From Holophagales bacterium UBA5704 (GTDB taxonomy: Bacteria; Acidobacteriota; Thermoanaerobaculia; Multivoradales; UBA5704), in contig DIHE01000147.1 in NCBI GenBank assembly GCA_002420005.1, forward strand, positions 36,006 to 100,005: a DNA stretch of 64,000 nucleotides, written 5' to 3'. The translations under genes were made by a program, and so were the position numbers. The notes below the pieces were generated by a model that did not search any database, was not told the origin of the DNA, and was given only the letters and a program-made list of their open reading frames with translations. Positions 10,777 to 59,658 of the stretch are shown here, one piece after another. Every line of letters begins with the position of its first letter. Position 1 is the first letter of the stretch.

Positions 10777-12012
10777 TCAAGACACGGCCGCGGCGAGCGC
10801 CGGCTCTTCCAGCTCCGCCTCCTCCTCTTCGGCCACCGGCAGGGCGTCCGGAAAGCCCTTCCACCCGTCCGGCCCGAGGCGCATCTCGTCGTCGGTCAAC
10901 AGGCACTCCTCCAGCCGGCGGGTCAGCGCCTCCCGGTCCATGCCGATGCCGATCAGCACCAACTCCTGGCGCCGGTCGCCAAAGTCGGGGTGCCAGGTCT
11001 CCGCCAGCTCGCGGCGGAAATCCTCGTCCTCCGGCCAGTCCTCGGAGGGCATCGCGGCCCACCAGACGCCGCCGGGCGCCAGGGTCGAGCACCGGCCGGC
11101 GTGGGACCAGACGAAGATCTCGTCCATCCGCGAGGCCACCCACAGAAAACCCTTGGAGCGCACGACGCCGGGCCACTCCTCCAGGGCATACCGGCGGAAG
11201 CGCTCCGGATGGAACGGCCGCGCCGAGCGGAAGACGAAGCTCGCGATCCCGTACTCCTCGGTCTCGGGCACGTGCTCGCCGGCCAGCTCGCGCATCCAGC
11301 CCGCCGACGCGGAGGCCTTCTCCATGTCGAACAGACCGGTGTCGAAAATCGCCTCCAGCGGCACGCGCCCGTGCTCGCTGCGCACGATCCGCGCCGTCGG
11401 ATTGAGATGGCGCAGCAGACCCTCGATGCGGCCCAGCTCCTCCTCGGTCGCGAGATCCGCCTTGTTGAGCACCAGGACGTTGCTGAATTCGATCTGATCC
11501 ACCAGCAGATCGGCGATGGTCCGCTCATCCTCGGCGCCGGCGGTCAGTCCGCGCGCCAGGAGATCCTCGCCGCGCTCGATCTCGGCCAGGACGTTGGCCG
11601 CGTCCACCACCGTCACCAGGGTGTCCAGGCGGGCGAGGTCGCCCAGGCTCACGCCGTCGCCGTCGGTGAAGCTGAAGGTCATGGCCACCGGCAGAGGCTC
11701 GGAAATGCCGGTGGACTCGATGAGCAGGTAGTCGAAGCGCCCCTCGCGGGCCAGGCGGGACACCTCCAGCAACAGGTCTTCCCGCAAGGTGCAGCAGATG
11801 CAGCCGTTGGTCATCTCCACCAGCCGCTCCTCGGTGCGATCGAGACGGGCGTCGCCGTCGCGCACCAGCCGGGCGTCGATGTTGACCTCGCTCATGTCGT
11901 TGACGATCACCGCGACACGGCGCCCGCTGCGCTGGGCCAGGACATGGTTGAGAAGCGTCGTCTTCCCCGCGCCGAGGAAGCCGGAGAGGACGGTGACAGG
12001 GAGCTGGCTCAT
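10777..12012 (-). CDS. COG0523 G3E-family GTPase metallochaperone (CobW/ZigA/YjiA-like), putative zinc chaperone
   Basis: Walker [14 protein letters not shown] metal motif [10 protein letters not shown], His/acidic C-terminal region; AGGAGG RBS 9 nt upstream of ATG 12012; upstream part of track ORF is in-frame read-through. Confidence 0.85.
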
Positions 12013-12070
12013 GAGTGCGGTACCTCCTTCAAGTGAGAGGCCATTCTCAACAAGCCGACCCTGCCGGGTT

Positions 12071-12271
12071 GTGCGAAATCGCACCGCCCGAGGTCCCGCG
12101 GCGAGAGATGCTGGAGCCGCCAACGCCGCGCCCTCCGCGATAGGGCGCGGTGCCCATGATGCGTCCGCCGGGGCCAGAATCCCTCCGGCGGCGCCTTTTT
12201 TCCTTCAGCGCCCTGCACCCTCCCTCCTCCCTCGGAATTCTTTCTGTGCCTGTGCCGAATCGCACCGGTGC
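12071..12271. promoter_or_regulatory. Divergent promoter region with two copies of an imperfect-palindrome motif GTGC(C)GAA(A)TCGCAC and an 8-bp hairpin
   Basis: GTGCGAAATCGCAC 12071-12084; GTGCCGAATCGCACCGGTGC 12252-12271 (contains perfect palindrome GCACCGGTGC); CGCGCCCT-N7-AGGGCGCG 12127-12149; lies between divergent COG0523 gene and RiPP precursor. Confidence 0.3.
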
Positions 12272-12409
12272 AGGGGTGAAAAGCGGACAAACCGAACCGG
12301 CCGGGGCTCTCTATCCTCCCGCTCATTCGGCAGGCCTGCCGGAGACCCCGGTGCGGCGACGTGCCGCCGTGCCGATGCCGATCAACCCGTTTTCAGGAGG
12401 ATTACGCCC

Positions 12410-12553
12410 ATGGACTTCAAGAACGACATCTTCGAAGCCGTCTCCGCCACCCTCTCCGAGGATCCGGTCCACAGCAACACCCACAACCACGCTCTCGTCC
12501 ACAACCCCTTCGCCTGGGAAGAGGACGAGACCTCCACCCCCGACGCCGAGTAG
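12410..12553 (+). CDS. RiPP precursor peptide candidate (47 aa, Cys-free, His/Asn-rich): MDFKNDIFEAVSATLSEDPVHSNTHNHALVHNPFAWEEDETSTPDAE
   Basis: AGGAGG RBS 7 nt upstream of ATG; strong GC3 codon bias consistent with genuine coding; positioned immediately upstream of E1-like/YcaO/SagB operon; followed by stem-loop attenuator. Confidence 0.6.
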   Translation: MDFKNDIFEAVSATLSEDPVHSNTHNHALVHNPFAWEEDETSTPDAE

Positions 12554-12577
12554 CCCCACCCACGTCCTCGTTCCTCC

Positions 12578-12610
12578 GGGGGAGGCGGCACGTCGCCTCC
12601 CCCTTTCTTG
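12578..12610 (+). terminator. Stem-loop attenuator between precursor and modification genes (perfect 10-bp GC stem + TTTCTTG)
   Basis: GGGGGAGGCG(12578-12587) loop gcacgt CGCCTCCCCC(12594-12603) then TTTCTTG; typical of RiPP precursor-enzyme stoichiometry control. Confidence 0.5.
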
Positions 12611-12635
12611 CGACCTGGAGCTTGCAGGAGGCACC

Positions 12636-13460
12636 TTGAACGAAGCCCTGCGCGATGGTTGGCACCTTTGCCCCTCACCGGAGGGACGCTGGATGCTGGT
12701 CTCCCCCGAAGAGCGGTTCGTGCGGTTGCGCATCGAGCCGGAGCAGGCCGCCCGGCTGGCCCATCGGTTGACCGGCGGGACCACGGGCGGAGAGCCGGAG
12801 GGCGACCTGCTCCCGATCCTGGAGACGTTCGCGCAGCAGGGGCTGCTGGCCGACCGGCCGGCTGCGGTGTCCCCGCTCACCGGCCGCCATGTTCTGGTGC
12901 GCGGCGGCGGACCTGTCGCCGCCACGGTGACCCGCCTGCTGCGCGCGGCCGGCGTGGGACGGGTGACGGAACGCGACGCCGGAGCCCTTCCCGTCTCCAC
13001 GGTCGACGCGCCGCACGCGGTCATCGCCTGCGCCGGCTGGCTTCCCGATGCGGACTGGCTTCGGCTGGACGCCTGGTGCGCCGGGCACGGCATCGTCTGG
13101 ACCGGCTGCCACGCCGAGGGGCTGCGCTTTCATCTCGGCCCGCTGGCGATTCCCGGACGCACCGCGGGCTATGCCGATGTCCGCGCGCGGCGGCTCGCCG
13201 CGGCGCGCCATCCCGCGGAGCTCGAAGCCTGGTGGCGCCATCTGGACGGAGGCCGGGACGTTCCGGCGGTCCCCTGGCCGGAGCCGGCCGCCCTCGCCGC
13301 CCTCGCCGCCGCCCTCGCCGCCGACGTCCTGGCCTGGCTGAGCGGCAGGCCGCTCCCGCACGAAGGGGTGCAGCTCGCGTTCGATCCGGTGCGCTGGGAC
13401 TGGACGCGCCATCCGGTCCTGCCGGTGCCGCGCAACCTGATGCAGGAGCCCGCCGCATGA
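12636..13460 (+). CDS. E1-like (ThiF/MoeB-fold) YcaO partner protein with N-terminal RRE-like region (TOMM 'C'-type protein)
   Basis: Degenerate Rossmann HVLVRGGGPVAATVTRLLRAAGVGRV and ThiF-like HAVIACAGW..CAGHGIVW pattern, no catalytic CxxC; candidate starts TTG 12636 (AGGAGG upstream) or ATG 12693 (GGAGGG upstream); stop overlaps next start (ATGA). Confidence 0.55.
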   Translation: MNEALRDGWHLCPSPEGRWMLVSPEERFVRLRIEPEQAARLAHRLTGGTTGGEPEGDLLPILETFAQQGLLADRPAAVSPLTGRHVLVRGGGPVAATVTRLLRAAGVGRVTERDAGALPVSTVDAPHAVIACAGWLPDADWLRLDAWCAGHGIVWTGCHAEGLRFHLGPLAIPGRTAGYADVRARRLAAARHPAELEAWWRHLDGGRDVPAVPWPEPAALAALAAALAADVLAWLSGRPLPHEGVQLAFDPVRWDWTRHPVLPVPRNLMQEPAA

Positions 13461-14041
13461 ACGCCCAGGGACCGATCCTCGCCCTCTGCGGCAGCCTGCG
13501 CCACCCGTCGCGCACCCGCCAGGCCCTGGAACGCGCGCTCGCCGCAGCGGCGCGCCTGGGGGCCGCCACCGAGCTCCTCGCCGGGGAGCCGTTGCGCCTC
13601 CCCCTCTGCGACGGCCGCCCGGAGGCCGAGATCCCGCCCGCGGTGGCGGAGCTGCGGCACCGGGCGCGGGCCGCCGCGGCCCTGCTCCTCGGCTCGCCGG
13701 AGTACTGCGGCACCTACTCGGCGGTGATCAAGAACGTCGTCGAATGGCTCGGCCCCTCGATCCTGCAGGGCAAGGTGGTGGGCGTGGTCACCGTCGCCGA
13801 GGGGCCGAGCGCGCAGGGGTCCTTGCGCGCGCTGCGCGAGCTGTGCCTGCTCGAAGGTGCCTGGGTGGTGCCGGCCGCCGCGGCCATCCCGCTGGTCGAG
13901 CAGGTGTTCGCACAGCCGTCCGCGCCGCTGGCGGTCTCGGTGCTGCGCCACCTCGACGCCCTCGGCAAAGCCCTGCCGGGCGCCCTCCGCCGCCTGCACG
14001 GCCCTTCCGGCCGGCCTCCCGCGGAGGGTCTGCCGGCATGA
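13457..14041 (+). CDS. NAD(P)H-dependent FMN reductase (flavodoxin-like fold, SsuE/ArsH-like)
   Basis: ILALCGSLRHPSRT...LLLGSPEYCGTYSAVIKNVVEW motif of NADPH-dependent FMN reductase family; ATGA overlaps both neighbours. Confidence 0.7.
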   Translation: MNAQGPILALCGSLRHPSRTRQALERALAAAARLGAATELLAGEPLRLPLCDGRPEAEIPPAVAELRHRARAAAALLLGSPEYCGTYSAVIKNVVEWLGPSILQGKVVGVVTVAEGPSAQGSLRALRELCLLEGAWVVPAAAAIPLVEQVFAQPSAPLAVSVLRHLDALGKALPGALRRLHGPSGRPPAEGLPA

Positions 14042-15627
14042 GGGGGCGCAACGTCCCCTGCGTGCACGCCGGGCTCCGAGTGGAGGCGCCGGACGGGGTG
14101 CGGCTCGCGACGGACGTCTACCGGCCCGGCGCCGGACGGCCGGTGCCGGCGGTCCTGCTGCGCACCTACCTGGGCAAGGCGCGGCACCAGGAGGAGGCGC
14201 TGGCCTGGGTGCGCGAAGGCTTCGCCTGCGTGGTTCAGGACGTGCGGGGCCGCTACGACTCGGACGGCTCCTGGGAACCCTATGTCCACGAGCGGGCGGA
14301 TGGCGCCGCGGCGGCGCGCTGGACCGCCGGGCAGCCCTGGTGCGACGGCCGCGTGGTGGTGGCCGGCGGCTCGTATGGCGCCTTCACCGCCTGGGCGGCG
14401 GCCCTGGAGAGCCCGGTGGTGCGGGCGGCGGCGGTCTCCGTCCCCGCCATGCACCGGGTGAATTTCGCACCCGGCGGGGTGCTCAAGCTGCTCAATCACA
14501 CCGCCTGGTGGATGGCGCACGGAGACGCCCGCACCGAGCGGACCCGTCTGTTCGAGGCGATGTGCAGAGCCTGCCCGGATCTCCTCGCACGCCTGCCGGT
14601 CTGCGCTCTGCCACCGAATGTCTGGGCCGCGCTGCCCGGTTGGCTCCCCGCAGCCCTCGCCGGCCCCGGACGGCCCGCGGTCTCCGACGCGGATCTCGCC
14701 GGGCTCGCCCTGCCGGTGCTCCACATCGGAGGCTGGCACGATCCGTTCATCGCCCAGACGATCCACCAGCAGGCGACCGCCGGATCGGCCGTGGCGCCTC
14801 GGCCCATCCGCCGGATCATCGTCGGCCCCTGGACCCACGAGCTGCACAGCCACGTGCCCGCGGTCTATGGCGCGCGCACCTACGGGCCGGCCTCCCGCCT
14901 GCCGCTGGGGCGCCTGCAGGCCGAGTTCTTCCGCGGAGCCCTCGCGGATTGCACCGCGCCGGCGGCGCAGCTTTTTCTCACCGGTGCGAACCGCTGGCTC
15001 ACAGGGGACGGCTGGCCGCCGGTGCCGGTCGCGCCGTGCACCTGGTTTGCCTCCGCGGGCGGCGCTCTCGCTCCGGAGCCGCCCCGCGCCGGGGGCTCCG
15101 TCTCGTTCTCCTACGATCCCCTCTCCCCCTATCCCGGCCGCAACGGCCCGGTCGACCAGAGCGATCTGCTGCGCCGGCCGGACACCACCGCGTTCACCTC
15201 CCCACCGCTCGCCGCGCCGCTCACCTGGATCGGCGGACCGCGGGTGATCCTCCACGCCGCCACCGACGCCCCCGGCACCGACTGGGTCGCCCGCCTGCAT
15301 GAGGTCTTGCCGGATGGCCGCAGCCTCTACCTCGGCCATGGCCTGGTGGACGCGGCGCAGGAGCTCGCCCGCGACGGCGGAAAGCTCGTGCCGGGCGAGG
15401 CTCACCGGGTGGAGATCGACCTGCCCCCGCTCGCCATCACCCTCCCGGCAGGGCACCGGCTCCGCCTGGAGATCACCAGCAGCGACTTCCCGGCCCATGC
15501 GCGCAACCTGAACACCGGTGCCTGCCGCCTGACCACCTCGGCGACCCGGGTGGCGCGGCAGACGATCCTCCATGGACCCTCGGCTCCCACGGCCCTGGTG
15601 CTGCCGGTGGCACAGGAGCTCCCGTGA
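14038..15627 (+). CDS. CocE/NonD-family alpha/beta hydrolase (S15 X-Pro dipeptidyl-peptidase-like)
   Basis: Nucleophile elbow VVAGGSYGAF, S15-family N-terminal region (DGVRLATDVYRP), C-terminal beta-sandwich; translationally coupled within RiPP operon. Confidence 0.7.
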   Translation: MRGRNVPCVHAGLRVEAPDGVRLATDVYRPGAGRPVPAVLLRTYLGKARHQEEALAWVREGFACVVQDVRGRYDSDGSWEPYVHERADGAAAARWTAGQPWCDGRVVVAGGSYGAFTAWAAALESPVVRAAAVSVPAMHRVNFAPGGVLKLLNHTAWWMAHGDARTERTRLFEAMCRACPDLLARLPVCALPPNVWAALPGWLPAALAGPGRPAVSDADLAGLALPVLHIGGWHDPFIAQTIHQQATAGSAVAPRPIRRIIVGPWTHELHSHVPAVYGARTYGPASRLPLGRLQAEFFRGALADCTAPAAQLFLTGANRWLTGDGWPPVPVAPCTWFASAGGALAPEPPRAGGSVSFSYDPLSPYPGRNGPVDQSDLLRRPDTTAFTSPPLAAPLTWIGGPRVILHAATDAPGTDWVARLHEVLPDGRSLYLGHGLVDAAQELARDGGKLVPGEAHRVEIDLPPLAITLPAGHRLRLEITSSDFPAHARNLNTGACRLTTSATRVARQTILHGPSAPTALVLPVAQELP

Positions 15628-16988
15628 GCGATCCCCTGAAGCTCCTGGTCGATCCGCGCTTCGGCATCGTCACCGCGCTGGAGCGGCGCATGCATCCGCC
15701 GGAGGTGCCGCCGGCCCTGATCTCCTACACGGCACGGGTCGCCGACACCCGGCGGCTGGGTGCCTGGCAAGGGGACCGGGTGGCCCTCGGCTCCGCCTTC
15801 TGGGACGAGGACCGGGCGCGCCGCGCGGCGCTCGGCGAAGCGGTGGAACGCACCTGCGGCAACTTCGTCCCCGCCGGGCTGCTGCGCGCCTCGCACCGCG
15901 ACCTGCGCACGGCCGGCGAGCCGGCCCTCGATCCCGCCGCGATGGTGCTCTATGCGGACTCGCAGTACGACCACCGCGGCTTCCCCTTCGTCCGCTTCAC
16001 CGACGACCTGCGGGTGCTCTGGACGACCGGCCGCGATCTCGCGACCGGAGAGGCGGTGCGGGTGCCCGCGTCGTTCGTCTACATCAACTACTACGGCGGC
16101 GCCCTGGCCGGCGAGCCGAGGACGAACTTCGTCCTCTACTCCGGAATCGCCACCGGGCCGAATCGGGAGGCGGCGGAGGAGGCGGCCCTGGAGGAGCTCA
16201 TCGAGCGCGACGCCACCATGATCTGGTGGATGTCCGGCAGCCCGGCCGTCGGCATTCCTCTGGAAAGCGCACCGATGGTCCGCGCCGCTCTCGCCCATCC
16301 CGCCGACCACGGTACGCTGCACCATCACCTGATCCAGATCCGCACCCCTTTCGACGTGCCGGTGGTCGGCGCCCTGGTGCAGGACACGGAGCTGTCCCTG
16401 ATCGGGCTCGGCGTGGCCTGCCGCCCCGATCCCGGACAGGCCGCTCTCAAGGCGCTGGTCGAGGCGATCCACCTGCGCTGCTTCAGCCGCCAGATGCTCG
16501 ATCCCGGCGGCAGCGTCTGGCGCTCCATGCGCTCCGGAATCCTCGACCCCCGCGCCTACAAACCCTTCCGCGCCGACCGCGCCTACCGGGATGCGTACCG
16601 CGCCGACTTCCGCGACGTGACCGACCTCGGAGCCCAGTCGCAGATCTATCTCGACCCCCGGATGCACGTCCACGCCGACCGCATCCTCCACCCTGCCGCC
16701 TGGGCCCCCCTGGATCGGCTGCCCGCCGTCCCGGGCCGCGCCGCCTACCGGCAACGGCTCGCCGCGCGCGGCTTCCGGGCGATCTCGGTGGACGTCACCA
16801 CGCCGGACGTGCAGGCCGCCGGCTTGTGCGTCGTGCGGGTGATCGTCCCGGGGCTCTACCCGAACGCGCCCGCCGCCTTCCCGTTCCTCGGCGGGCGCCG
16901 GCTGTATGAAGAGCCGGCGGCGCTCGGCTGGCTCCCGGCGCCGCTCACCGAGGCCGACCTGGTCCGCGTCCCCCTGCCGCACACATGA
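15624..16988 (+). CDS. YcaO-domain cyclodehydratase (azoline-forming type, C-terminal Pro-rich motif)
   Basis: YcaO ATP-binding glutamate motifs (LGEAVERTCGN, LEELIERDA), C-terminal VRVPLPHT PxP motif; GTGA/ATGA overlaps. Confidence 0.85.
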   Translation: MSDPLKLLVDPRFGIVTALERRMHPPEVPPALISYTARVADTRRLGAWQGDRVALGSAFWDEDRARRAALGEAVERTCGNFVPAGLLRASHRDLRTAGEPALDPAAMVLYADSQYDHRGFPFVRFTDDLRVLWTTGRDLATGEAVRVPASFVYINYYGGALAGEPRTNFVLYSGIATGPNREAAEEAALEELIERDATMIWWMSGSPAVGIPLESAPMVRAALAHPADHGTLHHHLIQIRTPFDVPVVGALVQDTELSLIGLGVACRPDPGQAALKALVEAIHLRCFSRQMLDPGGSVWRSMRSGILDPRAYKPFRADRAYRDAYRADFRDVTDLGAQSQIYLDPRMHVHADRILHPAAWAPLDRLPAVPGRAAYRQRLAARGFRAISVDVTTPDVQAAGLCVVRVIVPGLYPNAPAAFPFLGGRRLYEEPAALGWLPAPLTEADLVRVPLPHT

Positions 16989-18292
16989 GCGAGCCGCCCG
17001 TCCTCGCCTACCACCGGCGGAGCAAGAACCGTCCGGGCCGCCCCGCCGCGGCACCCCGGAGGCTCGACCGCTCCATCGAGCCGGTCCCCTTCCGGCGCTA
17101 CCGCGGTGCCGCCCTGCTCCCCCTGCCGGAGATCCCGCCGGTGGACGGCCCGGCCTGGGGGGAGCTGTTCATCCCCGGCGCCGTCGCCCCTGCACCGCTC
17201 GACCGGGAGGCCGTGGCCCGCCTGTTCTTCGACTCCCTGGCGATCTCCGCCTGGCGCGAGGAGGCCGGCGCCCGCTTCTCGTTCCGGGTGAACCCCTCCG
17301 CCGGCAACCTCCATCCGACCGAGGCCTATCTCCTCGCCGGCCCCCTGCCCGGGCTGCACGACCGGGCCGCCCTCTACCACTACTCACCGTTCGACCACGC
17401 CCTGGAGATCCGCGCCGATCTGCCGGACGGCGGCGTGCCGCCCGGCACCCTCCTTCTCGGATTCACCTCGATCCTCTGGCGCACCGCCTGGAAATACGGC
17501 GAGCGCGCCTTCCGCCTCGCCCGGCTCGACGCGGGGCATGCCCTCGCCGCGGTCACCTGGGCCGCCGCGGCCCTGGGCTGGGAAGCGCGGCAGGTGGAGA
17601 TCGGCGACGCGGCGCTGGCGCGCCTGCTGGGTGTCGCCGCGCAGGAAGGGCCGGAACGCGAGGAACCGGTGGCCCTGCTCGCCCTCGGAGCCCCGCCCGA
17701 CGCCCGGCCCGGGGCGCCGGGGGACGGCGGCCGTCCGAACCGGATCAGCCCCGGCCACCGGAGCTGGCCGGCGCTCGACGCCGTCACCGCGGCCACCCGC
17801 CACCCGGGTGCGGAGCGGCAGGCCGCACCGGGTGCGGAGACGGCGCGCGCCGTCCTGCGCGGCCGGCGAAGCCCGGCGGCGTTCGCGGGCGCCTTGGGAG
17901 CGGAGGAAATTTCCCGGGTTTTTGCCGGTGGACTTTCTCGCCCGTTCGTGCAGCGGCCCCTGCTGCGGGTCGAACGTCTGCTCCCGGGCGACGGCGTGGA
18001 CCTTCGCCGCCTGGCCGGCCACCAGAGCTTCGCGGCCGGCGCCTCCTGCCTCGCGGTGCTGCTGGGTGACCTGGAGCCGGCGCTCGCCCCCGGCGGCGCC
18101 TGGCTCTACCGCCGGCTGCATGAGGAGGCCGGAGCGATCGGGCACGCGCTCTCCCTGGAGGCGGCGGCGCAGGGCCTGGGAGCGCGGGGCATCGGCGGAT
18201 TTCTCGACGACGAGGTTCTGGCCGCTCTCGGGTTGCCGGCGGAGGGCCGGTGGCAGGCCCTGTATCTGTTGGCGGTGGGGCGGCCGGCGTGA
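16985..18292 (+). CDS. SagB-type (McbC-like) FMN-dependent dehydrogenase, nitroreductase superfamily
   Basis: FSFRVNPSAGNLHPTEAYL signature of SagB/ThcOx dehydrogenases; two nitroreductase-like halves. Confidence 0.8.
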   Translation: MSEPPVLAYHRRSKNRPGRPAAAPRRLDRSIEPVPFRRYRGAALLPLPEIPPVDGPAWGELFIPGAVAPAPLDREAVARLFFDSLAISAWREEAGARFSFRVNPSAGNLHPTEAYLLAGPLPGLHDRAALYHYSPFDHALEIRADLPDGGVPPGTLLLGFTSILWRTAWKYGERAFRLARLDAGHALAAVTWAAAALGWEARQVEIGDAALARLLGVAAQEGPEREEPVALLALGAPPDARPGAPGDGGRPNRISPGHRSWPALDAVTAATRHPGAERQAAPGAETARAVLRGRRSPAAFAGALGAEEISRVFAGGLSRPFVQRPLLRVERLLPGDGVDLRRLAGHQSFAAGASCLAVLLGDLEPALAPGGAWLYRRLHEEAGAIGHALSLEAAAQGLGARGIGGFLDDEVLAALGLPAEGRWQALYLLAVGRPA

Positions 18293-19602
18293 AGGCCTTC
18301 GGTCGCCTCGTCGATCCCCGGCTGGGCCTCCTGCGCCGCCTCGCCCTGGAGCCGCTGCCGCCGCACCTCCCCCCCGGCCTCTGCCAGGCCCGCGCCGAGA
18401 TCGCCGACAGCCGCGCCTTCTCCCCCTGGACGAGCGACGCCGCCGCGGCCGGGCTCGCCTGGTGGAACGCGGAGGCGGCCCGCGCCGCGGCGGTTGGTGA
18501 GGCGGTCGAGCGCTATTGCGGCAACGTCGTGCCCACCGGGCTGCGGCGCGCTTCCTACGCCGAGCTCGCCGCCGGTGGTGGGGCGGCCCTCGATCCGGCG
18601 GATCTCGCCCTCTATGCCCCGGAGCAGTATCGCCGGCGCGGTTTCCCCTTTGTGCCGTTCACCCGCGACCTGCAGGTGCTGTGGACCACGGGCTTCGATC
18701 TGGCCACCGGGGACTCCGTGGCCGTCCCGGCCTCCTGGGTGTGGACCTCGTGGAGCACCGGGCCGGCGGCCGGCGAGCCGAAGACCCACGGCACGATCTA
18801 CGCAGGCATCGCGGCCGGCCCGTCCCGGGAGGAGGCCGAGCGCAGCGCTCTCGCGGAGCTCGTGGAACGCGATGCGGTCCACCTCGCCTGGACGGCCGGC
18901 GTCCCCCTCCCCCGGCTCACGCCACCGGCCTGGATGGAGCCCTTGCTCACCGCTGCGCGCGGGGCGGTCACCGCCGAGCTGTACCTCTTCCCCAACGCCT
19001 TCGGCCTGCCGGTCGTCGGCGCCCTCCTGCGCGACCGGGAGGCCGGCGTGGTGACCCTGGGCCAGGCCTGCCGCACCACACCCGTCGACGCGGCCCTCAA
19101 AGCGGTGGCCGAGGCCGCCCAGCTCAACCTGGTCGCCCGCGCCCTGGCCGACCCGCAAACCGGCCTCGCCGACCGCCTCGCCGCCGTCCCCGGCGCCGCG
19201 CTCCATCCCTGGCGGGCCGACCGCGGCTACGCCGCGCTCTACGGTCCCCTCTGGCGCGGCGCCCGCGATCTCCTGTGCCATCTCCAGCTCCATCTCGATC
19301 CGGCTCTGCACAAGCCCCTCGCCGATCGGCTCGCCACCGGAGGCACCCGGCCCCTGGCCGACCTCCCCGCCGCCGGCCCCGAAACCCGGGAGACCTACCT
19401 GACGCGCCTGCACGCCCGCGGCTTCCGCGCCGTCTCGGTCGACGTCACCACCTCCGACGTCGCCCCGACGGGCCTGCGCGTCGTCCGGGTCGTGGTCCCC
19501 GGGCTCTACGCCAATGCCCCCGCCGCCTTCCCCTATCTGGGAGGACGGCGGCTGGCGGAGGCGGGCGGGGTGCGCTGCACCCTGCCGCCTCCCTATGCGT
19601 GA
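18289..19602 (+). CDS. Second YcaO-domain protein, paralogue of 15624-16988
   Basis: GEAVERYCGN / LAELVERDA motifs; C-terminal block VSVDVTTSDVAPTGLRVVRVVVPGLYANAPAAFPYLGGRRL nearly identical to first YcaO; GTG 18289 overlaps SagB stop; ends LPPPYA. Confidence 0.85.
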   Translation: MKAFGRLVDPRLGLLRRLALEPLPPHLPPGLCQARAEIADSRAFSPWTSDAAAAGLAWWNAEAARAAAVGEAVERYCGNVVPTGLRRASYAELAAGGGAALDPADLALYAPEQYRRRGFPFVPFTRDLQVLWTTGFDLATGDSVAVPASWVWTSWSTGPAAGEPKTHGTIYAGIAAGPSREEAERSALAELVERDAVHLAWTAGVPLPRLTPPAWMEPLLTAARGAVTAELYLFPNAFGLPVVGALLRDREAGVVTLGQACRTTPVDAALKAVAEAAQLNLVARALADPQTGLADRLAAVPGAALHPWRADRGYAALYGPLWRGARDLLCHLQLHLDPALHKPLADRLATGGTRPLADLPAAGPETRETYLTRLHARGFRAVSVDVTTSDVAPTGLRVVRVVVPGLYANAPAAFPYLGGRRLAEAGGVRCTLPPPYA

Positions 19603-19676
19603 GGTGGACCACGCTAGAGCAGGAGCGCCGCGGGGTCGCTTGCGTGCCGTAGGTGCGTGAGTGCGATGACTCAGCT

Positions 19677-19706
19677 GCGGGAGCTTACTGTATAATAGGG
19701 GAGAAT
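19677..19706 (+). promoter_or_regulatory. Putative sigma70-type promoter (TGACTC-N18-TATAAT) for island genes
   Basis: Perfect TATAAT at 19701-19706 in locally AT-rich DNA, 150 nt upstream of lipoprotein ATG. Confidence 0.35.
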
Positions 19707-19857
19707 GAAATCGCTCCTGAAGGGCACCCTACCAACTCCCAAGCTCTCGGAGGGGCGTTCTGATACAGGAGTGTAGCCAGAGCCTTCTTCTCGCCGCAAA
19801 TAGAACTCGGCGAAGCCTGGGCAATGCTGGGCGTCGCCACCATGAGGGAGAAACGCT

Positions 19858-20277
19858 ATGCGTAAATCGTTGGCACTGATCCCCATCCTGGCCATCCTGG
19901 AAGCACTCAGCTCGTGCGCAAGTGCAAACTTCACGCCTGCTCAACAGGCTTGGATGGCCAAGAGAGACCAGCAGCCGCTGAGCTTCGTCGTCCCCGCCGC
20001 CGAGGCCAATGCCGCTTGGGCGCGAGCACAAGAGTGGATTGCACGGTTCGGCCAACTGCCGATTCTCACTACCAACGAGAGTGTAATCCAAACACAGCAA
20101 CCCGAGTATCCCGCTGCTGAGGTAGGAATGAAAGCCGTTCGGAGTCAGCTTCCGAACGGGGACTATCAGTTTTATGTCGACGCACTGAGTGCCAACGTCT
20201 TCTCGCGACCTCAGATGATGCGAATGGCTCAAGCCTGTGCCTATTACATTGCGAGCGGAATTCCCTATCCCGAATGA
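19858..20277 (+). CDS. Small lipoprotein of unknown function (lipobox ALSSC)
   Basis: Signal peptide MRKSLALIPILAILEALSSC; GAGGGAG RBS; lower-GC codon usage than flanks. Confidence 0.55.
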   Translation: MRKSLALIPILAILEALSSCASANFTPAQQAWMAKRDQQPLSFVVPAAEANAAWARAQEWIARFGQLPILTTNESVIQTQQPEYPAAEVGMKAVRSQLPNGDYQFYVDALSANVFSRPQMMRMAQACAYYIASGIPYPE

Positions 20278-20389
20278 CCCCGCTGAGCCTGGCAAGGGCG
20301 GTGCCCCCCATTCATCACAGGCGCGAGGTTCGCCCCTCCGGGAAGACTTCTCGCGGAGAACGGTCGCTCACACTCAAGGGGTTCTTGGA

Positions 20390-21205
20390 ATGAAGACGCA
20401 CCTTGGAATTCTACTCGGCCTTGCGTACATTGCTGGATTTCTTTCTGTTCAGGTTCACCTGCTCCGCTTTGGTATCCTGGAGATTTCTGCCCTTCAGGCC
20501 TACTACATTCTCGTGGGTTTCTGGTTCCTTCTGTGCATAGCGCCCGCACTGGCGACCATCCTCGCCTTGGAGTACGCGCTTTCGCCTTCGGACTCGCGGC
20601 GAGTCAGGGTCCTTGTCGTGCTCACCGGAGGTACAATTGCCGCAGCCGCAATCGCGGGAGGAAGCCGATTCGCTGCTCATCAGATGATTCTTAACTTCAA
20701 CGCCTATCCATACCCTTCTTGGTATGCAGTTGCAAACCTCGCAAATATGAATTTTTCCCTGGTTTTAGTCTGGGTTCTATCATTCGCCTACTCCAGGTTT
20801 ACGGGCTCCAAGAGAACAGCACGAAAGATTGGAGCCGCAGCCGGGGCGATCGCCTTATCTAGTGCAATTATATTCTTTGGTCGCACCATCTATCCTGCAT
20901 TGGATCATGGCGTGGGTGGAGGGGCGCCGCAGTTCGTCGAAATCATGGAAGACAACGGCCACCGCCGCATCGCGATGCAGATCCACGCTGGCGAAAATTA
21001 TCTCTACCTTCTAGAGCTTACGGCACTACCGGCGAAATTCGAGAGTCGCTTAGCCATAACGCAGTTCACAACAGATTCAGGTGGCCCCGTCTTCCGCGCC
21101 CTCGCCGACAACCAGATTCTTAAACTGAGAAACAGTCGCATAGATATTGTTAGAATCTTCGGACTCAGTCAGAGAGGAACCATTGGTAGCTACCTCGGCA
21201 AGTGA
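20390..21205 (+). CDS. Polytopic inner-membrane protein of unknown function
   Basis: Start MKTHLGILLGLAYIAGFLSV; at least 6 hydrophobic segments; located in lower-GC island. Confidence 0.5.
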   Translation: MKTHLGILLGLAYIAGFLSVQVHLLRFGILEISALQAYYILVGFWFLLCIAPALATILALEYALSPSDSRRVRVLVVLTGGTIAAAAIAGGSRFAAHQMILNFNAYPYPSWYAVANLANMNFSLVLVWVLSFAYSRFTGSKRTARKIGAAAGAIALSSAIIFFGRTIYPALDHGVGGGAPQFVEIMEDNGHRRIAMQIHAGENYLYLLELTALPAKFESRLAITQFTTDSGGPVFRALADNQILKLRNSRIDIVRIFGLSQRGTIGSYLGK

Positions 21206-21550
21206 AACACTTACCCTACCTCAGGCACGCCACCGAGCGGAGAGCCCCGCGTTGTTCTCCAGCTGGCGCCGTGAATAGGAATGGTCCGAGGGATCGGTAG
21301 ATCGGCCCAAGCGAGAGAAGATCGGCGAGACCGCCTGGCGGGTGGATAATCCGGACCTTGGACCGTAGGGTCCTGCCTTGCGTTCCAGCGACTCCCGCCC
21401 ACATGTGCCTGCCGGACCTTGATCTGAGTGAGGCTCGCCACCCAAGGACCGGGAGCCTCCGCCCGCGGGCGGGGTACCCCCGCATCTCGGGTATTGGCGC
21501 TATACTTCCGTGCGTCCAGCCCTTCTTGCGGGCTGGCAGAGGAGTTTTGA

Positions 21551-21790
21551 ATGTACGCTGTCTACACGCTCCGTGCCGAAGAGCTCGACCTGCGCTTTCT
21601 CGAGACACTCAAGAGTCAGTTCCGTGATCGTGAAATCGAGATCGCGATCTGTGAGGTCGCAGGGCGGGCCGAGGATGAGACCGCCTACCTCCTCCGCTCC
21701 CCCGCCAATCGGGAGCGCCTCCTGGACGCCATCGAGAACGTGAGCCAAGGCAGGGAGATCGTGACCCTCGACCCCGCCGAGCTTCGATGA
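21551..21790 (+). CDS. yefM: YefM/Phd-family antitoxin
   Basis: C-terminal [25 protein letters not shown] closely matches E. coli YefM [31 protein letters not shown] RBS. Confidence 0.85.
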   Translation: [79 protein letters not shown]

Positions 21791-22044
21791 AGAAGATCGC
21801 TTTCGAGCGGCGCGCCTTCGAGGACTTCACCGACTGGGCAACTACCGATCGGCAGACCCACAAACGCATCGTCGCCCTCATCGCCGACATTCTGCGAGAG
21901 CCTTTTTCGGGCCTGGGAAAGCCTGAGCCCTTGCGCCATGAGATGCAGGGGTACTGGTCCCGCCGGATCGACCAGGAGCATCGACTGGTCTACAGAGTGG
22001 ATCCGGACGCGGTGACCATCATCGCCTGCAAGTACCACTACTGA
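21787..22044 (+). CDS. yoeB: YoeB/Txe-family mRNA interferase toxin (RelE superfamily)
   Basis: PFSGLGKPEPLRHEMQGYWSRRIDQEHRLVYRVD...IIACKYHY matches YoeB catalytic C-terminus (RYHY); ATGA overlap with yefM. Confidence 0.88.
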   Translation: MKKIAFERRAFEDFTDWATTDRQTHKRIVALIADILREPFSGLGKPEPLRHEMQGYWSRRIDQEHRLVYRVDPDAVTIIACKYHY

Positions 22045-22080
22045 CTCCTCGAACGGCGGACGGCGCCCGGGGCCGGTGCC

Positions 22081-22827: not shown

Positions 22828-22839
22828 GACGACATCTCC

Positions 22840-30347: not shown

Positions 30348-30507
30348 GACCCCATCCTCGTGAGCGAAACGTTCTTTCGATCACGGCGGGCAGGCACACC
30401 TCGGCCCTGGACGCGAACGCCCTTTTCAGCGCGCAGCTTGACCAGGCGGGCGCAAAGCTCCGCCATCGCCGTGCCAACGGCACCACCAACGAAACGTTTT
30501 TATCGGG

Positions 30508-56297: not shown

Positions 56298-56326
56298 GCC
56301 GAAGCGCCCCAGGACCAGCCGTCCGC

Positions 56327-59641: not shown

Positions 59642-59658
59642 GCCGAGCCTCTGAGCGG

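What the first reader, a model, noticed from the sequence alone, without database searches (positions are those of the whole stretch)
12410..19602. Uncharacterised YcaO-type RiPP biosynthetic operon with two paralogous YcaO enzymes and a Cys-free precursor
Seven genes run head-to-tail on the + strand, each overlapping the next by 4 nt (ATGA/GTGA), which marks a single translationally coupled operon. The genes are: a 47-aa peptide, an E1-like (ThiF-fold) YcaO partner, an NAD(P)H-dependent FMN reductase, an S15 CocE/NonD peptidase, a YcaO, a SagB-type dehydrogenase and a second YcaO. The C-partner / YcaO / SagB-dehydrogenase trio is the hallmark of azol(in)e-forming TOMM machinery. Both YcaOs end in the Pro-rich motif seen in cyclodehydratase-type YcaOs. 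Three things are atypical. The candidate precursor has no cysteine at all. A second YcaO is present, and in bottromycin and klebsazolicin clusters an extra YcaO performs amidine chemistry rather than azoline formation. The accessory enzymes (FMN reductase, S15 peptidase) are not those of known TOMM, thiopeptide, bottromycin or thioamitide clusters. I could not match the gene set to any described RiPP class from memory.
Basis: partly seen in the sequence, partly recalled or inferred. Interest (0 to 1): 0.9.

Follow-up and report, generated by a model that had tools for sequence, protein, structure and literature searches.

The report
Streptamidine-family peptide operon, two-YcaO variant
This is a real operon for a ribosomally made, enzyme-modified peptide, but it is not an unknown class: it is a new variant, from an Acidobacteriota genome, of the published streptamidine family, whose product and biological role are still unknown.

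Summary
The seven + strand genes at 12410-19602 are real. Five of the six junctions are 4-nt overlaps. The precursor-to-next-gene junction is an 82-nt spacer holding a conserved hairpin.

The operon does match a described class, the streptamidine family (Russell et al. 2021, PMC8442711). The 47-aa peptide carries the family's invariant ALVxNPF motif. Five genes match amiA-E in content and order:
- the "E1-like" protein matches AmiB;
- the S15 hydrolase matches AmiC;
- a YcaO matches AmiD;
- the dehydrogenase is distantly related to AmiE.

That paper already noted a two-YcaO subset with unknown products.

What is new here:
- The host is an Acidobacteriota MAG.
- The precursor belongs to a distinct, strongly conserved subfamily, VH[STA]N[ST]HNH-ALVxNPFAWE.
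- An FMN reductase is inserted. In a relative it is fused to the YcaO.
- The SagB-type dehydrogenase has the canonical Lys-Tyr motif.
- The second YcaO belongs to an old paralogue clade (85% bootstrap).

The cluster is larger than reported:
- a divergent COG0523/CobW gene;
- two Crp-type boxes;
- a Crp-family regulator;
- a TonB-receptor/FecBCD-like importer.

In actinobacterial relatives, including the type ami locus, a Zur-box-like operator sits just upstream of the precursor. This points to a zinc-starvation role.

Verdict: new variant of a known kind, moderate interest.

The parts
10777..12012 (-). COG0523/CobW-family GTPase (putative metallochaperone), divergent from the precursor gene
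   Evidence: PF02492 cobW 183 bits and PF07683 CobW_C 87 bits. The public call gives 411 aa. CobW homologues lie within 10 kb in 8 other family loci from several genera.
12071..12084 (.). Crp/Fnr-type box GTGCGAAATCGCAC (perfect copy), about 59 bp upstream of the cobW start
   Evidence: Only two sites with 2 or fewer mismatches exist in the 64-kb window, both in this intergenic region; 0.59 are expected by chance. The same 14-mer lies about 146-166 bp upstream of the precursor in L084, L060 and L005.
12252..12265 (.). Second Crp/Fnr-type box GTGCCGAATCGCAC, 158 bp upstream of the precursor start
   Evidence: It is positionally conserved with L084 (-161), L060 (-166), L005 (-146) and the L006 variant (-150).
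12323..12343 (+). Conserved upstream block TCATTCGGCAGGCCTGCCGGA containing the palindrome CGGCAGG/CCTGCCG; function unknown
   Evidence: It is 100% identical in L084 while the surrounding non-coding DNA diverges. There is no Rfam match.
12410..12553 (+). Precursor peptide (AmiA-family): leader MDFKNDIFEAV.., predicted core around VHSNTHNH, follower/recognition ALVHNPFAWEE plus an acidic tail
   Evidence: NF040715 24 bits, E 2.5e-5, below the cutoff of 45. A28 L29 V30 N32 P33 F34 are invariant across 15 family peptides including motif A. The core DPVHSNTHNHALVHNPFAWEE is identical in L084. About 35 subfamily members were found.
12578..12603 (+). GC-rich hairpin with a T-rich tail between the precursor and the enzyme genes (attenuator or transcript-stabilising element)
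   Evidence: Terminator-like hit. The inverted repeat is 10/10 complementary. The sequence is 100% conserved in L084. Analogous strong hairpins follow the precursor in 11 of 13 loci folded, including the S. albidoflavus ami locus.
12636..13460 (+). AmiB-like E1-like / leader-binding partner of the YcaO (alternative start ATG 12693)
   Evidence: 30% identity over 209 aa to AmiB, E 2e-10. TIGR03882 31 bits, below the cutoff of 36.9; 19 of 20 homologues hit only this model. The top PDB hit of the profile is the TruD E1-like region, E 0.067.
13457..14041 (+). NAD(P)H-dependent FMN reductase family flavoprotein (not present in the ami cluster)
   Evidence: PF03358 99 bits. Nearest solved structures are azoreductases, ChrR and ArsH. 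It is conserved in L084, L005, L060, L007 and L079, and fused N-terminally to the YcaO in L001/L004.
14038..15627 (+). AmiC-like CocE/NonD (S15) serine hydrolase; predicted leader/follower peptidase
   Evidence: 35% identity over 531 aa to AmiC, E 2e-58. TIGR00976 280 bits. It aligns full length with cocaine esterase, and GGSYG, GGWHD and GPWTH align with the CocE Ser/Asp/His triad positions (triad positions from memory).
15624..16988 (+). YcaO 1 (upstream-type paralogue; groups with the single-YcaO relatives)
   Evidence: TIGR03604 278 bits, above the cutoff of 219. 38% identity to AmiD, 243 bits. Nearest solved structures are MusD, TruD and LynD. The ExxER and ExxERD motifs are invariant.
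16985..18292 (+). SagB/ThcOx-type FMN dehydrogenase with a WKYGERAFR (Lys-Tyr) motif; distant AmiE homologue of the same length
   Evidence: PF00881 57 bits; TIGR03605 73 bits, below the cutoff of 78.4. AmiE matches at 36% over 105 aa (E 1e-7) and 34% over 76 aa at the C-terminus. The alignment shows KY here against HY in AmiE. PDB 3eo7 E 2.5e-28.
18289..19602 (+). YcaO 2 (member of the separate 'second YcaO' clade)
   Evidence: TIGR03604 245 bits. 48% identity to YcaO 1. 39% identity to AmiD. The second-YcaO clade has 85/100 NJ bootstrap support.
19650..22050 (.). Low-GC (about 58%) insertion: lipoprotein-like ORF 19858-20277, hypotheticals, antitoxin-like ORF 21551-21790, YoeB toxin 21787-22044; probably not part of the pathway
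   Evidence: GC is 0.579 here against about 0.73 in the flanks. YoeB_toxin 122 bits. No RNA family or tRNA was found.
22081..22839 (-). Crp/Fnr-family transcription regulator; candidate binder of the two boxes
   Evidence: HTH_Crp_2 and Crp. Homologues sit next to the cluster in L084 (74%), L008, L060, L001, L007, L074, L075, L079 and L012.
22840..25270 (-). MacB_PCD/FtsX-type ABC permease (candidate exporter); the start is approximate
   Evidence: MacB_PCD 120 bits and FtsX 95 bits, two copies each. The same family flanks the cluster in L093.
25275..26060 (-). ABC transporter ATPase; the start is approximate
   Evidence: ABC_tran 98.5 bits.
26060..27090 (-). FecCD-family permease; the start is approximate
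   Evidence: FecCD 209 bits, covering the full profile. This is the same family as AmiF2/F3.
27091..28314 (-). Peripla_BP_2 substrate-binding protein (same family as AmiF1)
   Evidence: PF01497 45.7 bits. See for the same family beside relatives.
28290..30347 (-). TonB-dependent outer-membrane receptor, first gene of the minus-strand transport operon
   Evidence: TonB_dep_Rec_b-barrel 173 bits and Plug 81 bits. A TonB receptor is also adjacent in L001 and L093.

Best explanation
The locus is a biosynthetic gene cluster of the streptamidine (AmiA) family of ribosomally synthesised, post-translationally modified peptides. It sits in an Acidobacteriota MAG, in a two-YcaO / FMN-reductase / canonical-SagB variant.

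SHOWN BY SEQUENCE
- The 47-aa gene encodes an AmiA-type precursor. It has a conserved leader (..DIFE..), a conserved His-rich segment VHSNTHNH, and the family's follower ALVHNPFAWEE.
- Downstream lie homologues of AmiB (E1-like leader-binding partner), AmiC (S15 serine hydrolase, catalytic triad intact), AmiD (YcaO, two old paralogues that both keep the ATP/Mg motifs) and, distantly, AmiE (FMN dehydrogenase, here with the Lys-Tyr motif).
- An extra FMN reductase is inserted.
- A strong hairpin after the precursor gene separates it from the enzyme genes.

INFERRED BY ANALOGY WITH STREPTAMIDINE, KLEBSAZOLICIN AND TOMM ENZYMOLOGY
1. The AmiB-like protein docks the precursor on the YcaO(s).
2. A YcaO phosphorylates a backbone amide with ATP.
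3. The S15 hydrolase trims the leader, and probably the follower, exposing an N-terminal amine.
4. That amine attacks the activated carbonyl to give a six-membered N-terminal amidine, as in streptamidine.
5. The second YcaO performs a second backbone activation. The likeliest is cyclodehydration at the invariant Ser/Thr four residues before ALV.
6. The KY-containing SagB enzyme can then oxidise the resulting azoline to an azole.
7. The FMN reductase partners the YcaO/flavin chemistry.

CONTEXT
- The hairpin probably keeps precursor mRNA in excess.
- Two Crp-type boxes shared with a divergent COG0523 gene, a linked Crp-family regulator and a TonB-receptor/FecBCD-like importer suggest a secreted, re-imported small peptide.
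- The function is probably metal-related, possibly tied to zinc limitation.
For: FAMILY MEMBERSHIP
- The precursor hits NF040715.
- ALVxNPF is invariant in an alignment with published motif A, motif B and Firmicutes peptides.
- A profile search retrieves 429 peptides. Many are named 'streptamidine family RiPP', and AmiA of S. albidoflavus is among them.
- Direct BLASTP against the ami locus L087:
  - AmiB E 2e-10;
  - AmiC E 2e-58, full length;
  - AmiD 38-39% identity for both YcaOs;
  - AmiE E 1e-7.
- Gene order matches Table S8 of PMC8442711.
- L044 carries a peptide identical to one published in that paper. It has AmiB, S15, YcaO1 and YcaO2 homologues of the window genes.

THE PRECURSOR IS REAL
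- Its core is identical in L084 while the leader and tail differ.
- About 35 subfamily members were found.

ENZYMES LOOK COMPETENT
- YcaO motifs are invariant, and both YcaOs score above the TIGR03604 cutoff.
- The CocE triad positions are aligned.
- The KY motif is present.
- 19 of 20 AmiB-like proteins hit TIGR03882.

PARALOGY AND ACCESSORIES
- The second-YcaO clade has 85% bootstrap support and is found in 52 loci.
- The FMN reductase is functionally linked: it is fused to the YcaO in L001/L004 and recurs in 6 loci.

ARCHITECTURE AND CONTEXT
- L084 has the same seven genes plus a methyltransferase and a Crp gene.
- Hairpin.
- Crp boxes.
- Transport genes.
- CobW linkage.
Against: - No chemistry was observed. 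Amidine, azole and the assignment of roles to the two YcaOs are inference.
- The precursor scores below the curated cutoff of NF040715 (24 vs 45 bits) and did not hit the 'streptamidine family RiPP' model.
- AmiD falls outside both YcaO paralogue clades in the NJ tree, so neither copy is a clear AmiD orthologue.
- The AmiE relationship is weak (E 1e-7 over 105 aa). The nearest relatives of the window's dehydrogenase are stand-alone ~550-aa SagB/ThcOx proteins in unrelated contexts.
- SagB and TIGR03882 scores are just below the curated cutoffs.
- In streptamidine the dehydrogenase leaves no oxidation in the product (PMC8442711), so a KY motif does not guarantee an azole.
- The transport genes are separated from the operon by a 2.4-kb low-GC insertion, and co-regulation is unproven.
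- Streptamidine showed no metal binding, including Zn(II), and no metal-starvation phenotype.
Confidence: 0.8

Rival explanations
1. Single-modification model. The two YcaO paralogues form an obligate heterodimer, or one is a non-catalytic scaffold. Together with the AmiB-like partner they install only one N-terminal amidine. The SagB-like protein has the same cryptic, non-oxidising role as AmiE. The product is then simply a short streptamidine analogue such as VHSNTH or HSNTH(NH) minus 18 Da.
For: - In the characterised pathway one YcaO suffices, and the essential dehydrogenase leaves no oxidation in the product.
- Paired YcaOs are almost always adjacent and co-inherited, in 52 loci.
- Motif B precursors of two-YcaO loci have little to heterocyclise.
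- Ser at -6 is replaceable by Ala in the subfamily.
Against: - Both window YcaOs keep all invariant ATP/Mg motif residues and Pro-rich C-termini.
- The two clades have stayed distinct across phyla (85% bootstrap), which suggests separate functions.
- The dehydrogenase here has canonical KY rather than AmiE's HY.
- Ser/Thr at -4, or Cys at -5, is invariant in the subfamily.
Confidence: 0.3
2. Classical azole-only TOMM/linear azol(in)e peptide. The trio of E1-like partner, YcaO and SagB makes an oxazole at Ser/Thr. No amidine is formed. The second YcaO is a redundant cyclodehydratase.
For: - Both YcaOs pass TIGR03604 (SagD family).
- The nearest solved structures are the cyanobactin heterocyclases MusD, TruD and LynD.
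- The SagB-type enzyme has KY.
- An oxazoline-containing shunt product was seen in the streptamidine pathway.
Against: - The conserved region holds only one or two heterocyclisable residues and no Cys, unlike TOMM cores.
- Precursor, partner and hydrolase are homologous to a pathway whose proven product is an amidine.
- Most two-YcaO relatives lack any SagB gene.
Confidence: 0.15
3. One reading: an entirely new RiPP class with no described counterpart.
For: - The exact seven-gene set, with FMN reductase, KY-type SagB and a second YcaO, is not that of any characterised cluster.
- The precursor falls below NCBIfam cutoffs and carries no name in the public record.
Against: - Five of the seven genes and their order match amiA-E.
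- The precursor motif is the family's defining motif.
- Two-YcaO members were already published.
Confidence: 0.04

Closest known systems
Streptamidine (ami) cluster of Streptomyces albidoflavus J1074, MIBiG BGC0002115 (Russell et al. 2021, PMC8442711)
   Same: - The order is the same: precursor, E1-like partner (no Pfam hit), S15 hydrolase, YcaO, 435-aa dehydrogenase.
- ALVxNPF lies after a short His-containing core, with S(-6), T(-4) and H(-3) in the same register as HLSATH.
- A hairpin follows the precursor.
- A Peripla_BP_2/FecCD/ABC_tran importer lies nearby.

   Different: - Protein identity is only 30-39%.
- There is a second YcaO and an inserted FMN reductase.
- The dehydrogenase has KY rather than HY, and is closer to stand-alone SagB/ThcOx proteins.
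- The follower is ALVHNPFAWEE (motif B/Firmicutes style), not SNALVENPFD.
- The host is a diderm with a TonB receptor.
- A Crp-type box and regulator replace the Zur-like box.
- There is no amiX, and a MacB/FtsX permease stands in place of AmiT1/T2.
Two-YcaO, motif B streptamidine-related clusters of Frankia, Rhodococcus, Clavibacter and Streptomyces (described bioinformatically in PMC8442711; product unknown)
   Same: - Both paralogous YcaOs are present, each in the same clade as the window's copy.
- AmiB-like and S15 genes lie upstream.
- The follower is ALVHNPFA(W/F).

   Different: - The actinobacterial precursors repeat an APQGPGTN-ALVHNPF unit two or three times and lack the VHxNxHNH segment.
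- They have no SagB and no FMN reductase.
- They carry Zur-like boxes and FecCD importers of monoderm type.

Firmicutes members (Bacillus sp. CPSM8 / B. paralicheniformis, Paenibacillus) listed in the same paper
   Same: These are the closest published precursors..DPHHHALVHNPFVWEEE... The Paenibacillus locus also has S15, YcaO, a Crp-like gene and an FMN reductase.
   Different: They have a single YcaO, a precursor on the opposite strand, and no SagB or AmiB hit at the thresholds used.
Klebsazolicin and bottromycin pathways (amidine-forming YcaOs)
   Same: Both use ATP-dependent YcaO chemistry to give amidines. Klebsazolicin uses an E1-like partner plus a dehydrogenase and makes an N-terminal six-membered amidine. 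Bottromycin uses two YcaOs with a division of labour (summarised in PMC8442711).
   Different: No sequence-level membership was found. The window has no Cys-rich core, no bottromycin tailoring genes, and its YcaOs depend on a partner.

Membership tests
Streptamidine-family RiPP cluster (Network 1 of PMC8442711) | Short precursor with the conserved ALV motif (ALVxNPF) after the core | tested here: met
   A28 L29 V30 N32 P33 F34 are invariant in a 15-peptide alignment with published motif A, motif B and Firmicutes peptides. A profile search returns named streptamidine-family RiPPs.
Streptamidine-family RiPP cluster (Network 1 of PMC8442711) | Precursor passes the curated NCBIfam models for the family | tested here: not met
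   NF040715 scores 24.1 bits against a cutoff of 45 (E 2.5e-5, residues 27-38 only). No hit to another streptamidine model at E<=0.01. The models were built on actinobacterial sequences.
Streptamidine-family RiPP cluster (Network 1 of PMC8442711) | YcaO belongs to the clade associated with these precursors | tested here: met
   Identity is 38-39% to AmiD and 46-51% to YcaOs of loci whose peptides are published members, such as L044. In the tree AmiD itself lies outside both paralogue clades.
Streptamidine-family RiPP cluster (Network 1 of PMC8442711) | AmiB-type E1-like partner next to the precursor | tested here: met
   BLASTP to AmiB gives 30% over 209 aa, E 2e-10. 19 of 20 homologues hit TIGR03882. 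The TruD E1-like region is the top PDB hit.
Streptamidine-family RiPP cluster (Network 1 of PMC8442711) | AmiC-type S15 (PF02129) hydrolase | tested here: met
   35% identity over 531 aa, E 2e-58. The residues at the triad positions are present.
Streptamidine-family RiPP cluster (Network 1 of PMC8442711) | AmiE-type dehydrogenase | tested here: inconclusive
   The proteins are collinear and of equal length (435 aa), but only E 1e-7 over 105 aa plus E 0.18 at the C-terminus. The closest relatives are stand-alone SagB/ThcOx proteins.
Streptamidine-family RiPP cluster (Network 1 of PMC8442711) | FecBCDE-like importer genes in the cluster (amiF1-F4) | tested here: inconclusive
   Peripla_BP_2, FecCD, ABC_tran and a TonB receptor lie at 25275-30347 on the minus strand. 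They are 5.7 kb from the operon, beyond a low-GC insertion, and co-function was not tested.
Streptamidine-family RiPP cluster (Network 1 of PMC8442711) | Product carries an N-terminal six-membered amidine | not testable with these tools
   This needs MS/NMR of the product.
TOMM / linear azol(in)e peptide machinery | SagD-type YcaO cyclodehydratase (TIGR03604) | tested here: met
   278 and 245 bits against a cutoff of 219.
TOMM / linear azol(in)e peptide machinery | SagB-type FMN dehydrogenase (TIGR03605) with a Lys-Tyr motif | tested here: inconclusive
   73.3 bits against a cutoff of 78.4. The WKYGERAFR motif is present.
TOMM / linear azol(in)e peptide machinery | Core peptide rich in Cys/Ser/Thr | tested here: not met
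   There is no Cys. Only S(-6) and T(-4) lie in the conserved segment, and S(-6) can be Ala in relatives.
Bottromycin-type two-YcaO pathway | Two partner-independent YcaOs plus radical-SAM methyltransferases, a P450 and BotP/BotH/BotAH-type hydrolases | tested here: not met
   Pfam and NCBIfam scans of all seven products show none of these. An E1-like partner is present.
Thioamide-forming YcaO/TfuA systems | A TfuA-like partner adjacent to the YcaO | tested here: not met
   No TfuA domain was found in the operon or its neighbours. The methan_mark_1 scores of 53-56 bits are far below the cutoff of 365.

The most novel reading that the evidence does not exclude
The streptamidine family, whose biological role was left open in 2021, may be a family of metal-starvation-controlled secreted peptides. 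The likeliest version is a zincophore-like peptide or a zinc-sparing signal.

In Actinobacteria:
- The precursor gene sits directly behind a Zur-box-like operator in 18 of 64 loci, spanning at least 9 genera.
- These include the type ami locus, with 1 mismatch, 73 nt before amiA.
- The positional enrichment gives P about 2e-15.
- Zinc-independent ribosomal paralogues and COG0523 genes sometimes lie alongside.

In this Acidobacteriota variant:
- The same logic appears to be rewired. A divergent COG0523 gene shares two Crp-type boxes with the precursor.
- A TonB-receptor/FecBCD importer is linked.
- The nearly invariant core VHxNxHNH supplies His ligands, with an amidine and/or azole nitrogen as possible further donors.
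Probability: 0.3. Interest if true: 0.75.

Novelty: new variant of a known kind. Interest (0 to 1): 0.5.

Why it matters
- It moves this operon from "unknown RiPP class" to a defined place in the streptamidine family.
- It extends that family from Actinobacteria and Firmicutes into Acidobacteriota, Chloroflexota and other diderm lineages.
- It defines a third, strongly conserved precursor subfamily, VH[STA]N[ST]HNH-ALVxNPFAWE.
- The variant combines features that were separate in the published subgroups: a dehydrogenase, and two YcaOs. It adds an FMN reductase that is fused to the YcaO in a relative.
- That makes it a good system for two open questions from the 2021 paper: what the second YcaO does, and what the puzzling dehydrogenase does.
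- The regulatory context gives a directly testable hypothesis for the family's unknown biological role. That context is Crp boxes shared with a COG0523 gene here, and Zur-like boxes in actinobacterial relatives including the type locus.

Tried and rejected
- Sigma-70 promoter scan of 11500-22500 found nothing.
- tRNA scan of the window found none.
- Rfam scans of 19400-22300 and 12100-12700 found nothing above noise. The best match was 22 bits against a gathering score of 40.
- Structure prediction of the AmiB-like protein:
  - the single-sequence model was unusable (pLDDT 36.6, pTM 0.24), so no fold search was run.
- The first bootstrap script timed out. It was redone with vectorised distances.
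- The 'first YcaO' group is not monophyletic on its own, because single-YcaO sequences nest inside it. I therefore claim only that the second-YcaO clade is distinct.
- The actinobacterial Zur consensus has no match in the window at 3 or fewer mismatches. The zinc link for this locus rests on the COG0523 neighbour only.
- I considered that the SagB-like gene is a true AmiE orthologue. I left this open, because its closest relatives are stand-alone ~550-aa SagB/ThcOx proteins in unrelated neighbourhoods.
- I considered thioamide, bottromycin and classical TOMM classes and rejected them on missing defining genes or core composition (see the membership rows).
- The GTDB species-representative scan did not contain the source genome. 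The best hit was 64%, in a Thermoanaerobaculaceae MAG. The source was identified through exact protein look-up instead.
- Literature searches found no paper that characterises a two-YcaO or motif B product, or that links Zur to YcaO RiPPs, within the held library. Subscription-only papers are not covered.

Full report
OBSERVATION

The window is about 70% GC. It is identical to part of NCBI contig DAIMFI010000002.1 (GCA_036724675.1), an Acidobacteriota MAG.

Their domain content is as described:
- FMN_red (PF03358, 99 bits);
- Peptidase_S15/CocE-NonD (136 and 280 bits);
- two YcaOs (PF02624, 186 bits each; TIGR03604 278 and 245 bits, cutoff 219);
- a nitroreductase/SagB-like protein.

Five junctions are ATGA or GTGA overlaps. 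The first junction is not an overlap:
- The peptide ends in TAG at 12553.
- An 82-nt spacer follows, with a perfect 10-bp GC stem (12578-12603) and a T-rich tail.
- The next gene most likely starts at TTG 12636. That start has a GCAGGAGG ribosome-binding site. Nearly invariant residues (W19, R30) lie upstream of the ATG at 12693 used in the public annotation.

WHAT IT IS

The 47-aa peptide hits one NCBIfam model, 'streptamidine-related RiPP repeat protein'. The hit is E 2.5e-5 but below the curated cutoff. This led to Russell et al. 2021 (PMC8442711).

That paper used RiPPER on actinobacterial stand-alone YcaOs and defined a family of more than 230 clusters. Its findings:
- The precursors share an 'ALV' motif.
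- The S. albidoflavus cluster amiA-E makes streptamidine. This is HLSATH with a six-membered N-terminal amidine.
- AmiB is an E1-like protein of 281 aa with no Pfam hit.
- AmiC is a PF02129 hydrolase of 508 aa.
- AmiD is a YcaO of 455 aa.
- AmiE is a dehydrogenase of 435 aa.
[quoted passage not shown] Its precursors carry motif B and its products are unknown.

The supplementary peptide lists contain sequences plainly related to the window's peptide. Examples are Frankia ..APQDPTTHALVQNPFAWDEEK and Bacillus ..DPHHHALVHNPFVWEEEKDNEEN.

In a 15-peptide alignment, A-L-V-x-N-P-F is invariant. A profile of that alignment retrieves 429 peptides. These include:
- many that NCBI names 'streptamidine family RiPP';
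- AmiA itself (P0334);
- the window's own peptide (P0253).

I fetched the type locus (L087) and compared proteins directly:

| Window protein | Ami protein | Result |
|---|---|---|
| Partner protein | AmiB | 30% over 209 aa, E 2e-10 |
| S15 hydrolase | AmiC | 35% over 531 aa, E 2e-58 |
| YcaO1 | AmiD | 38% identity, 243 bits |
| YcaO2 | AmiD | 39% identity, 207 bits |
| SagB-like | AmiE | 36% over 105 aa, E 1e-7, plus a weak collinear C-terminal match; both 435 aa |

The operon is therefore amiA-B-[FMN reductase]-C-D-E-[second YcaO].

CONSERVATION AND RELATIVES

A scan of one genome per species returned 80 loci. I mapped these with tblastn.
- AmiB-like, S15, YcaO, YcaO is the common actinobacterial layout.
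- 52 loci have two adjacent YcaOs. Of these, 46 have an AmiB-like gene and 41 an S15 gene.
- This differs from the paper's remark that such clusters generally lack amiB. The likely reason is that AmiB is too divergent for the search they used.

The nearest relative is the metagenomic contig L084. It has the same seven genes in the same order with the same overlaps, plus a methyltransferase and a downstream Crp-family gene. Protein identities are 60-80%.
- Its precursor differs in the leader and the tail.
- It is identical through DPVHSNTHNHALVHNPFAWEE.
- The post-precursor hairpin is 100% conserved at DNA level while the flanks diverge.

About 35 further peptides define a subfamily:

M..(D/E)IFE.. 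- variable - (T/P)VH[STA]N[ST]H[NC][HN]-ALV[EHQ]NPFAWE[ED]D - acidic tail

Variants carry xCNHNH. Their clusters come from Thermoanaerobaculia, Anaerolineae, Egibacteraceae and others, and include a 12-Mb genome. They vary in accessories:
- FMN reductase: L005, L060, L007, L079, and fused to the YcaO in L001/L004;
- methyltransferase: L084, L092, L093;
- SagB: between the YcaOs in the window and L084, downstream in L008 and L092.

With ALV as anchor, the window's V H S N T H N H lines up without gaps with AmiA's H L S A T H S N. S(-6), T(-4) and H(-3) are shared. The precursor thus combines a motif A-like core register with a motif B/Firmicutes-like follower. This mirrors the hybrid gene content.

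ENZYMES

Both YcaOs:
- keep the invariant GEAxER and ExxERD motifs; their assignment as ATP/Mg ligands is from my knowledge of E. coli YcaO;
- have Pro-rich C-termini;
- have the cyanobactin heterocyclases MusD, TruD and LynD as nearest solved structures.

They are 48% identical to each other. In an NJ tree of 139 YcaOs, the downstream copies form their own clade across phyla. That clade has 85/100 bootstrap support in a 46-taxon subset. The upstream copies group with single-YcaO relatives. AmiD lies outside both. The duplication is therefore old and maintained, which argues for distinct or interdependent roles.

The other enzymes:
- The S15 protein aligns full length with cocaine esterase. 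Residues at the Ser/Asp/His triad positions are present (triad positions from memory).
- 19 of 20 AmiB-like proteins hit only TIGR03882, 'TOMM precursor leader peptide-binding protein'. Their profile's top PDB hit is the E1-like part of TruD, at a weak E of 0.067.
- The dehydrogenase has WKYGERAFR where AmiE has AHYGHRAW. This is the canonical Lys-Tyr pair that the paper says AmiE replaces with His-Tyr.
- Its closest relatives beyond L084 are stand-alone ~550-aa SagB/ThcOx proteins in unrelated contexts, and PDB 3eo7. It may therefore be an independent recruitment rather than an AmiE orthologue.

LIKELY MECHANISM (INFERENCE)

1. The AmiB-like protein presents the precursor. The conserved leader DIFE and the follower ALVxNPFAW are candidate recognition elements.
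2. A YcaO phosphorylates a backbone amide.
3. The hydrolase frees the N-terminal amine, which closes a six-membered amidine as in streptamidine.
4. The second YcaO probably cyclodehydrates the invariant Ser/Thr at -4, or Cys at -5 in the variants.
5. The KY dehydrogenase can oxidise the azoline.
6. The FMN reductase works with the YcaO. This is supported by the fusion in L001/L004. It could supply or recycle flavin, or act as the reductase the 2021 authors invoked to explain AmiE's cryptic role.

Strong hairpins follow the precursor gene in 11 of 13 loci examined, including the ami locus. This fits partial termination or transcript stabilisation that keeps precursor mRNA in excess.

The main rival is that the two YcaOs act as one unit, and the product is a simple amidine peptide.

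CLUSTER LIMITS AND REGULATION

Upstream and divergent lies a COG0523/CobW GTPase.

The intergenic region holds the only two copies in 64 kb of a Crp/Fnr-type palindrome, GTGCGAAATCGCAC (0.59 expected by chance):
- one is about 59 bp from cobW;
- the other is 158 bp before the precursor.

The same box sits 146-166 bp before the precursor in L084, L060 and L005, with a variant in L006.

A Crp-family regulator lies at 22081-22839. Homologues accompany the cluster in nine other loci.

Between the operon and that regulator is a 2.4-kb low-GC insertion. It carries a lipoprotein-like ORF and a YoeB toxin pair.

Beyond it, on the minus strand, are:
- a MacB/FtsX permease;
- an ABC ATPase;
- a FecCD permease;
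- a Peripla_BP_2 protein;
- a TonB-dependent receptor.

This is a diderm counterpart of amiF1-F4, which were essential for streptamidine production. TonB receptors or Fec-like importers also flank L001, L092 and L093.

SIDE FINDING BEARING ON FUNCTION

COG0523 genes lie within 10 kb in nine family loci. In L002 the cluster abuts zinc-independent ribosomal-protein paralogues.

I scanned the loci for the S. coelicolor Zur operator consensus TGAAAATGATTTTCA. The consensus is quoted in PMC2823685. I allowed up to 3 mismatches.
- There are 40 hits in 1.15 Mb.
- 18 of them fall in the 700 bp before the AmiB-like gene. That zone is 3.9% of the sequence, so 1.6 hits are expected (binomial P 2e-15).
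- The 18 loci span at least nine genera, though some are close relatives.
- The type ami locus has TGAAAATCATATTCA (1 mismatch), ending 73 nt before amiA.
- The window itself has no such box.

The 2021 paper suspected a metal link. It found no metal binding and no starvation phenotype for streptamidine, so this remains a hypothesis.

Two further features fit a conserved physiological role rather than an arms-race antibiotic. The core is nearly invariant and His-rich across phyla. Dedicated importers are linked.

VERDICT

- The feature is real.
- The central claim of 'no known class' is wrong.
- It is a new variant of the streptamidine family, in a new phylum, with an uncharacterised product.
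- I found no later paper characterising two-YcaO members in the held library.
- Interest is moderate at 0.5. The higher-value reading is the possible zinc- or metal-starvation role of the whole family.

Noticed in passing
L087:9914-9928 (S. albidoflavus ami locus), and 17 other actinobacterial loci, e.g. L002:7238, L015:7453, L028:1936, L054:7200: A Zur-box-like 7-1-7 palindrome (consensus TGAAAATGATTTTCA, up to 3 mismatches) lies just upstream of the precursor gene in 18 of 64 AmiB-containing loci. 18 of the 40 hits fall in 3.9% of the sequence (P about 2e-15). In the type locus it has 1 mismatch and ends 73 nt before amiA. This was not reported in the 2021 paper as far as I could read.
   Followed up: partly
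window 10777-12012 (-); also L092:2825-3892, L002:19333-20484, L021, L035, L043, L058, L065, L081: A COG0523/CobW-family GTPase recurs within 10 kb of streptamidine-family clusters in several genera. In L002 it sits with zinc-independent ribosomal protein paralogues (S14, L28, L33, L31, S18).
   Followed up: partly
window 12071-12084 and 12252-12265: These are the only two copies in 64 kb of the Crp/Fnr-type palindrome GTGCGAAATCGCAC. Both lie in the cobW-precursor divergent region. The box is positionally conserved upstream of precursors in Acidobacteriota and Chloroflexota relatives.
   Followed up: yes
window 12323-12343: The block TCATTCGGCAGGCCTGCCGGA, containing the palindrome CGGCAGG/CCTGCCG, lies upstream of the precursor. 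It is 100% conserved with L084 although the neighbouring non-coding DNA diverges. There is no Rfam match and the role is unknown.
   Followed up: partly
window 30365-30377 and 30490-30502: Two copies of CGAAACGTTYTTW lie upstream of the TonB-dependent receptor gene. These are the only copies in the window (0.02 expected). They may be an operator for a metalloregulator.
   Followed up: no
L001:9391-11361 (= L004; Thermoanaerobaculaceae MAG): This is a natural fusion of an FMN_red domain to the N-terminus of a YcaO that is 64% identical to YcaO1. It sits in a minimal cluster with a 30-aa peptide (..HGNVSNHGLVQNSITWKK) and a short AmiB-like protein, and without hydrolase, SagB or a second YcaO. 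A Crp-family gene and a TonB receptor are adjacent.
   Followed up: partly
52 two-YcaO loci among L002-L083: 46 of the 52 two-YcaO loci encode an AmiB-like partner (30-48% identity to the window's). The published description says this subset generally lacks amiB.
   Followed up: yes
window 19650-22050: A low-GC (about 58%) island separates the operon from its probable regulator. It holds a lipoprotein-like ORF (19858-20277), hypotheticals and an antitoxin/YoeB toxin pair (21551-22044). It looks like a later insertion.
   Followed up: partly
window 12636/12693 and 18250/18289: The public gene calls start the AmiB-like gene at ATG 12693, cutting off conserved N-terminal residues. They start YcaO2 at GTG 18250, a 43-nt overlap. 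Homologue alignment and the L084 junctions favour TTG 12636 and GTG 18289.
   Followed up: yes
L084:3435-4271, L092:12809-13672, L093:12541-13416: A SAM-dependent methyltransferase is inserted between the hydrolase and the first YcaO in close relatives that share the same precursor subfamily. It is absent from the window, so relatives probably make a methylated congener.
   Followed up: no
window 52611-56465 (-) and 56327-60274: Very long, high-GC ORFs (about 1,280 aa and longer) lie at the far end of the window. I did not annotate them. They are unrelated to this finding as far as I looked.
   Followed up: no
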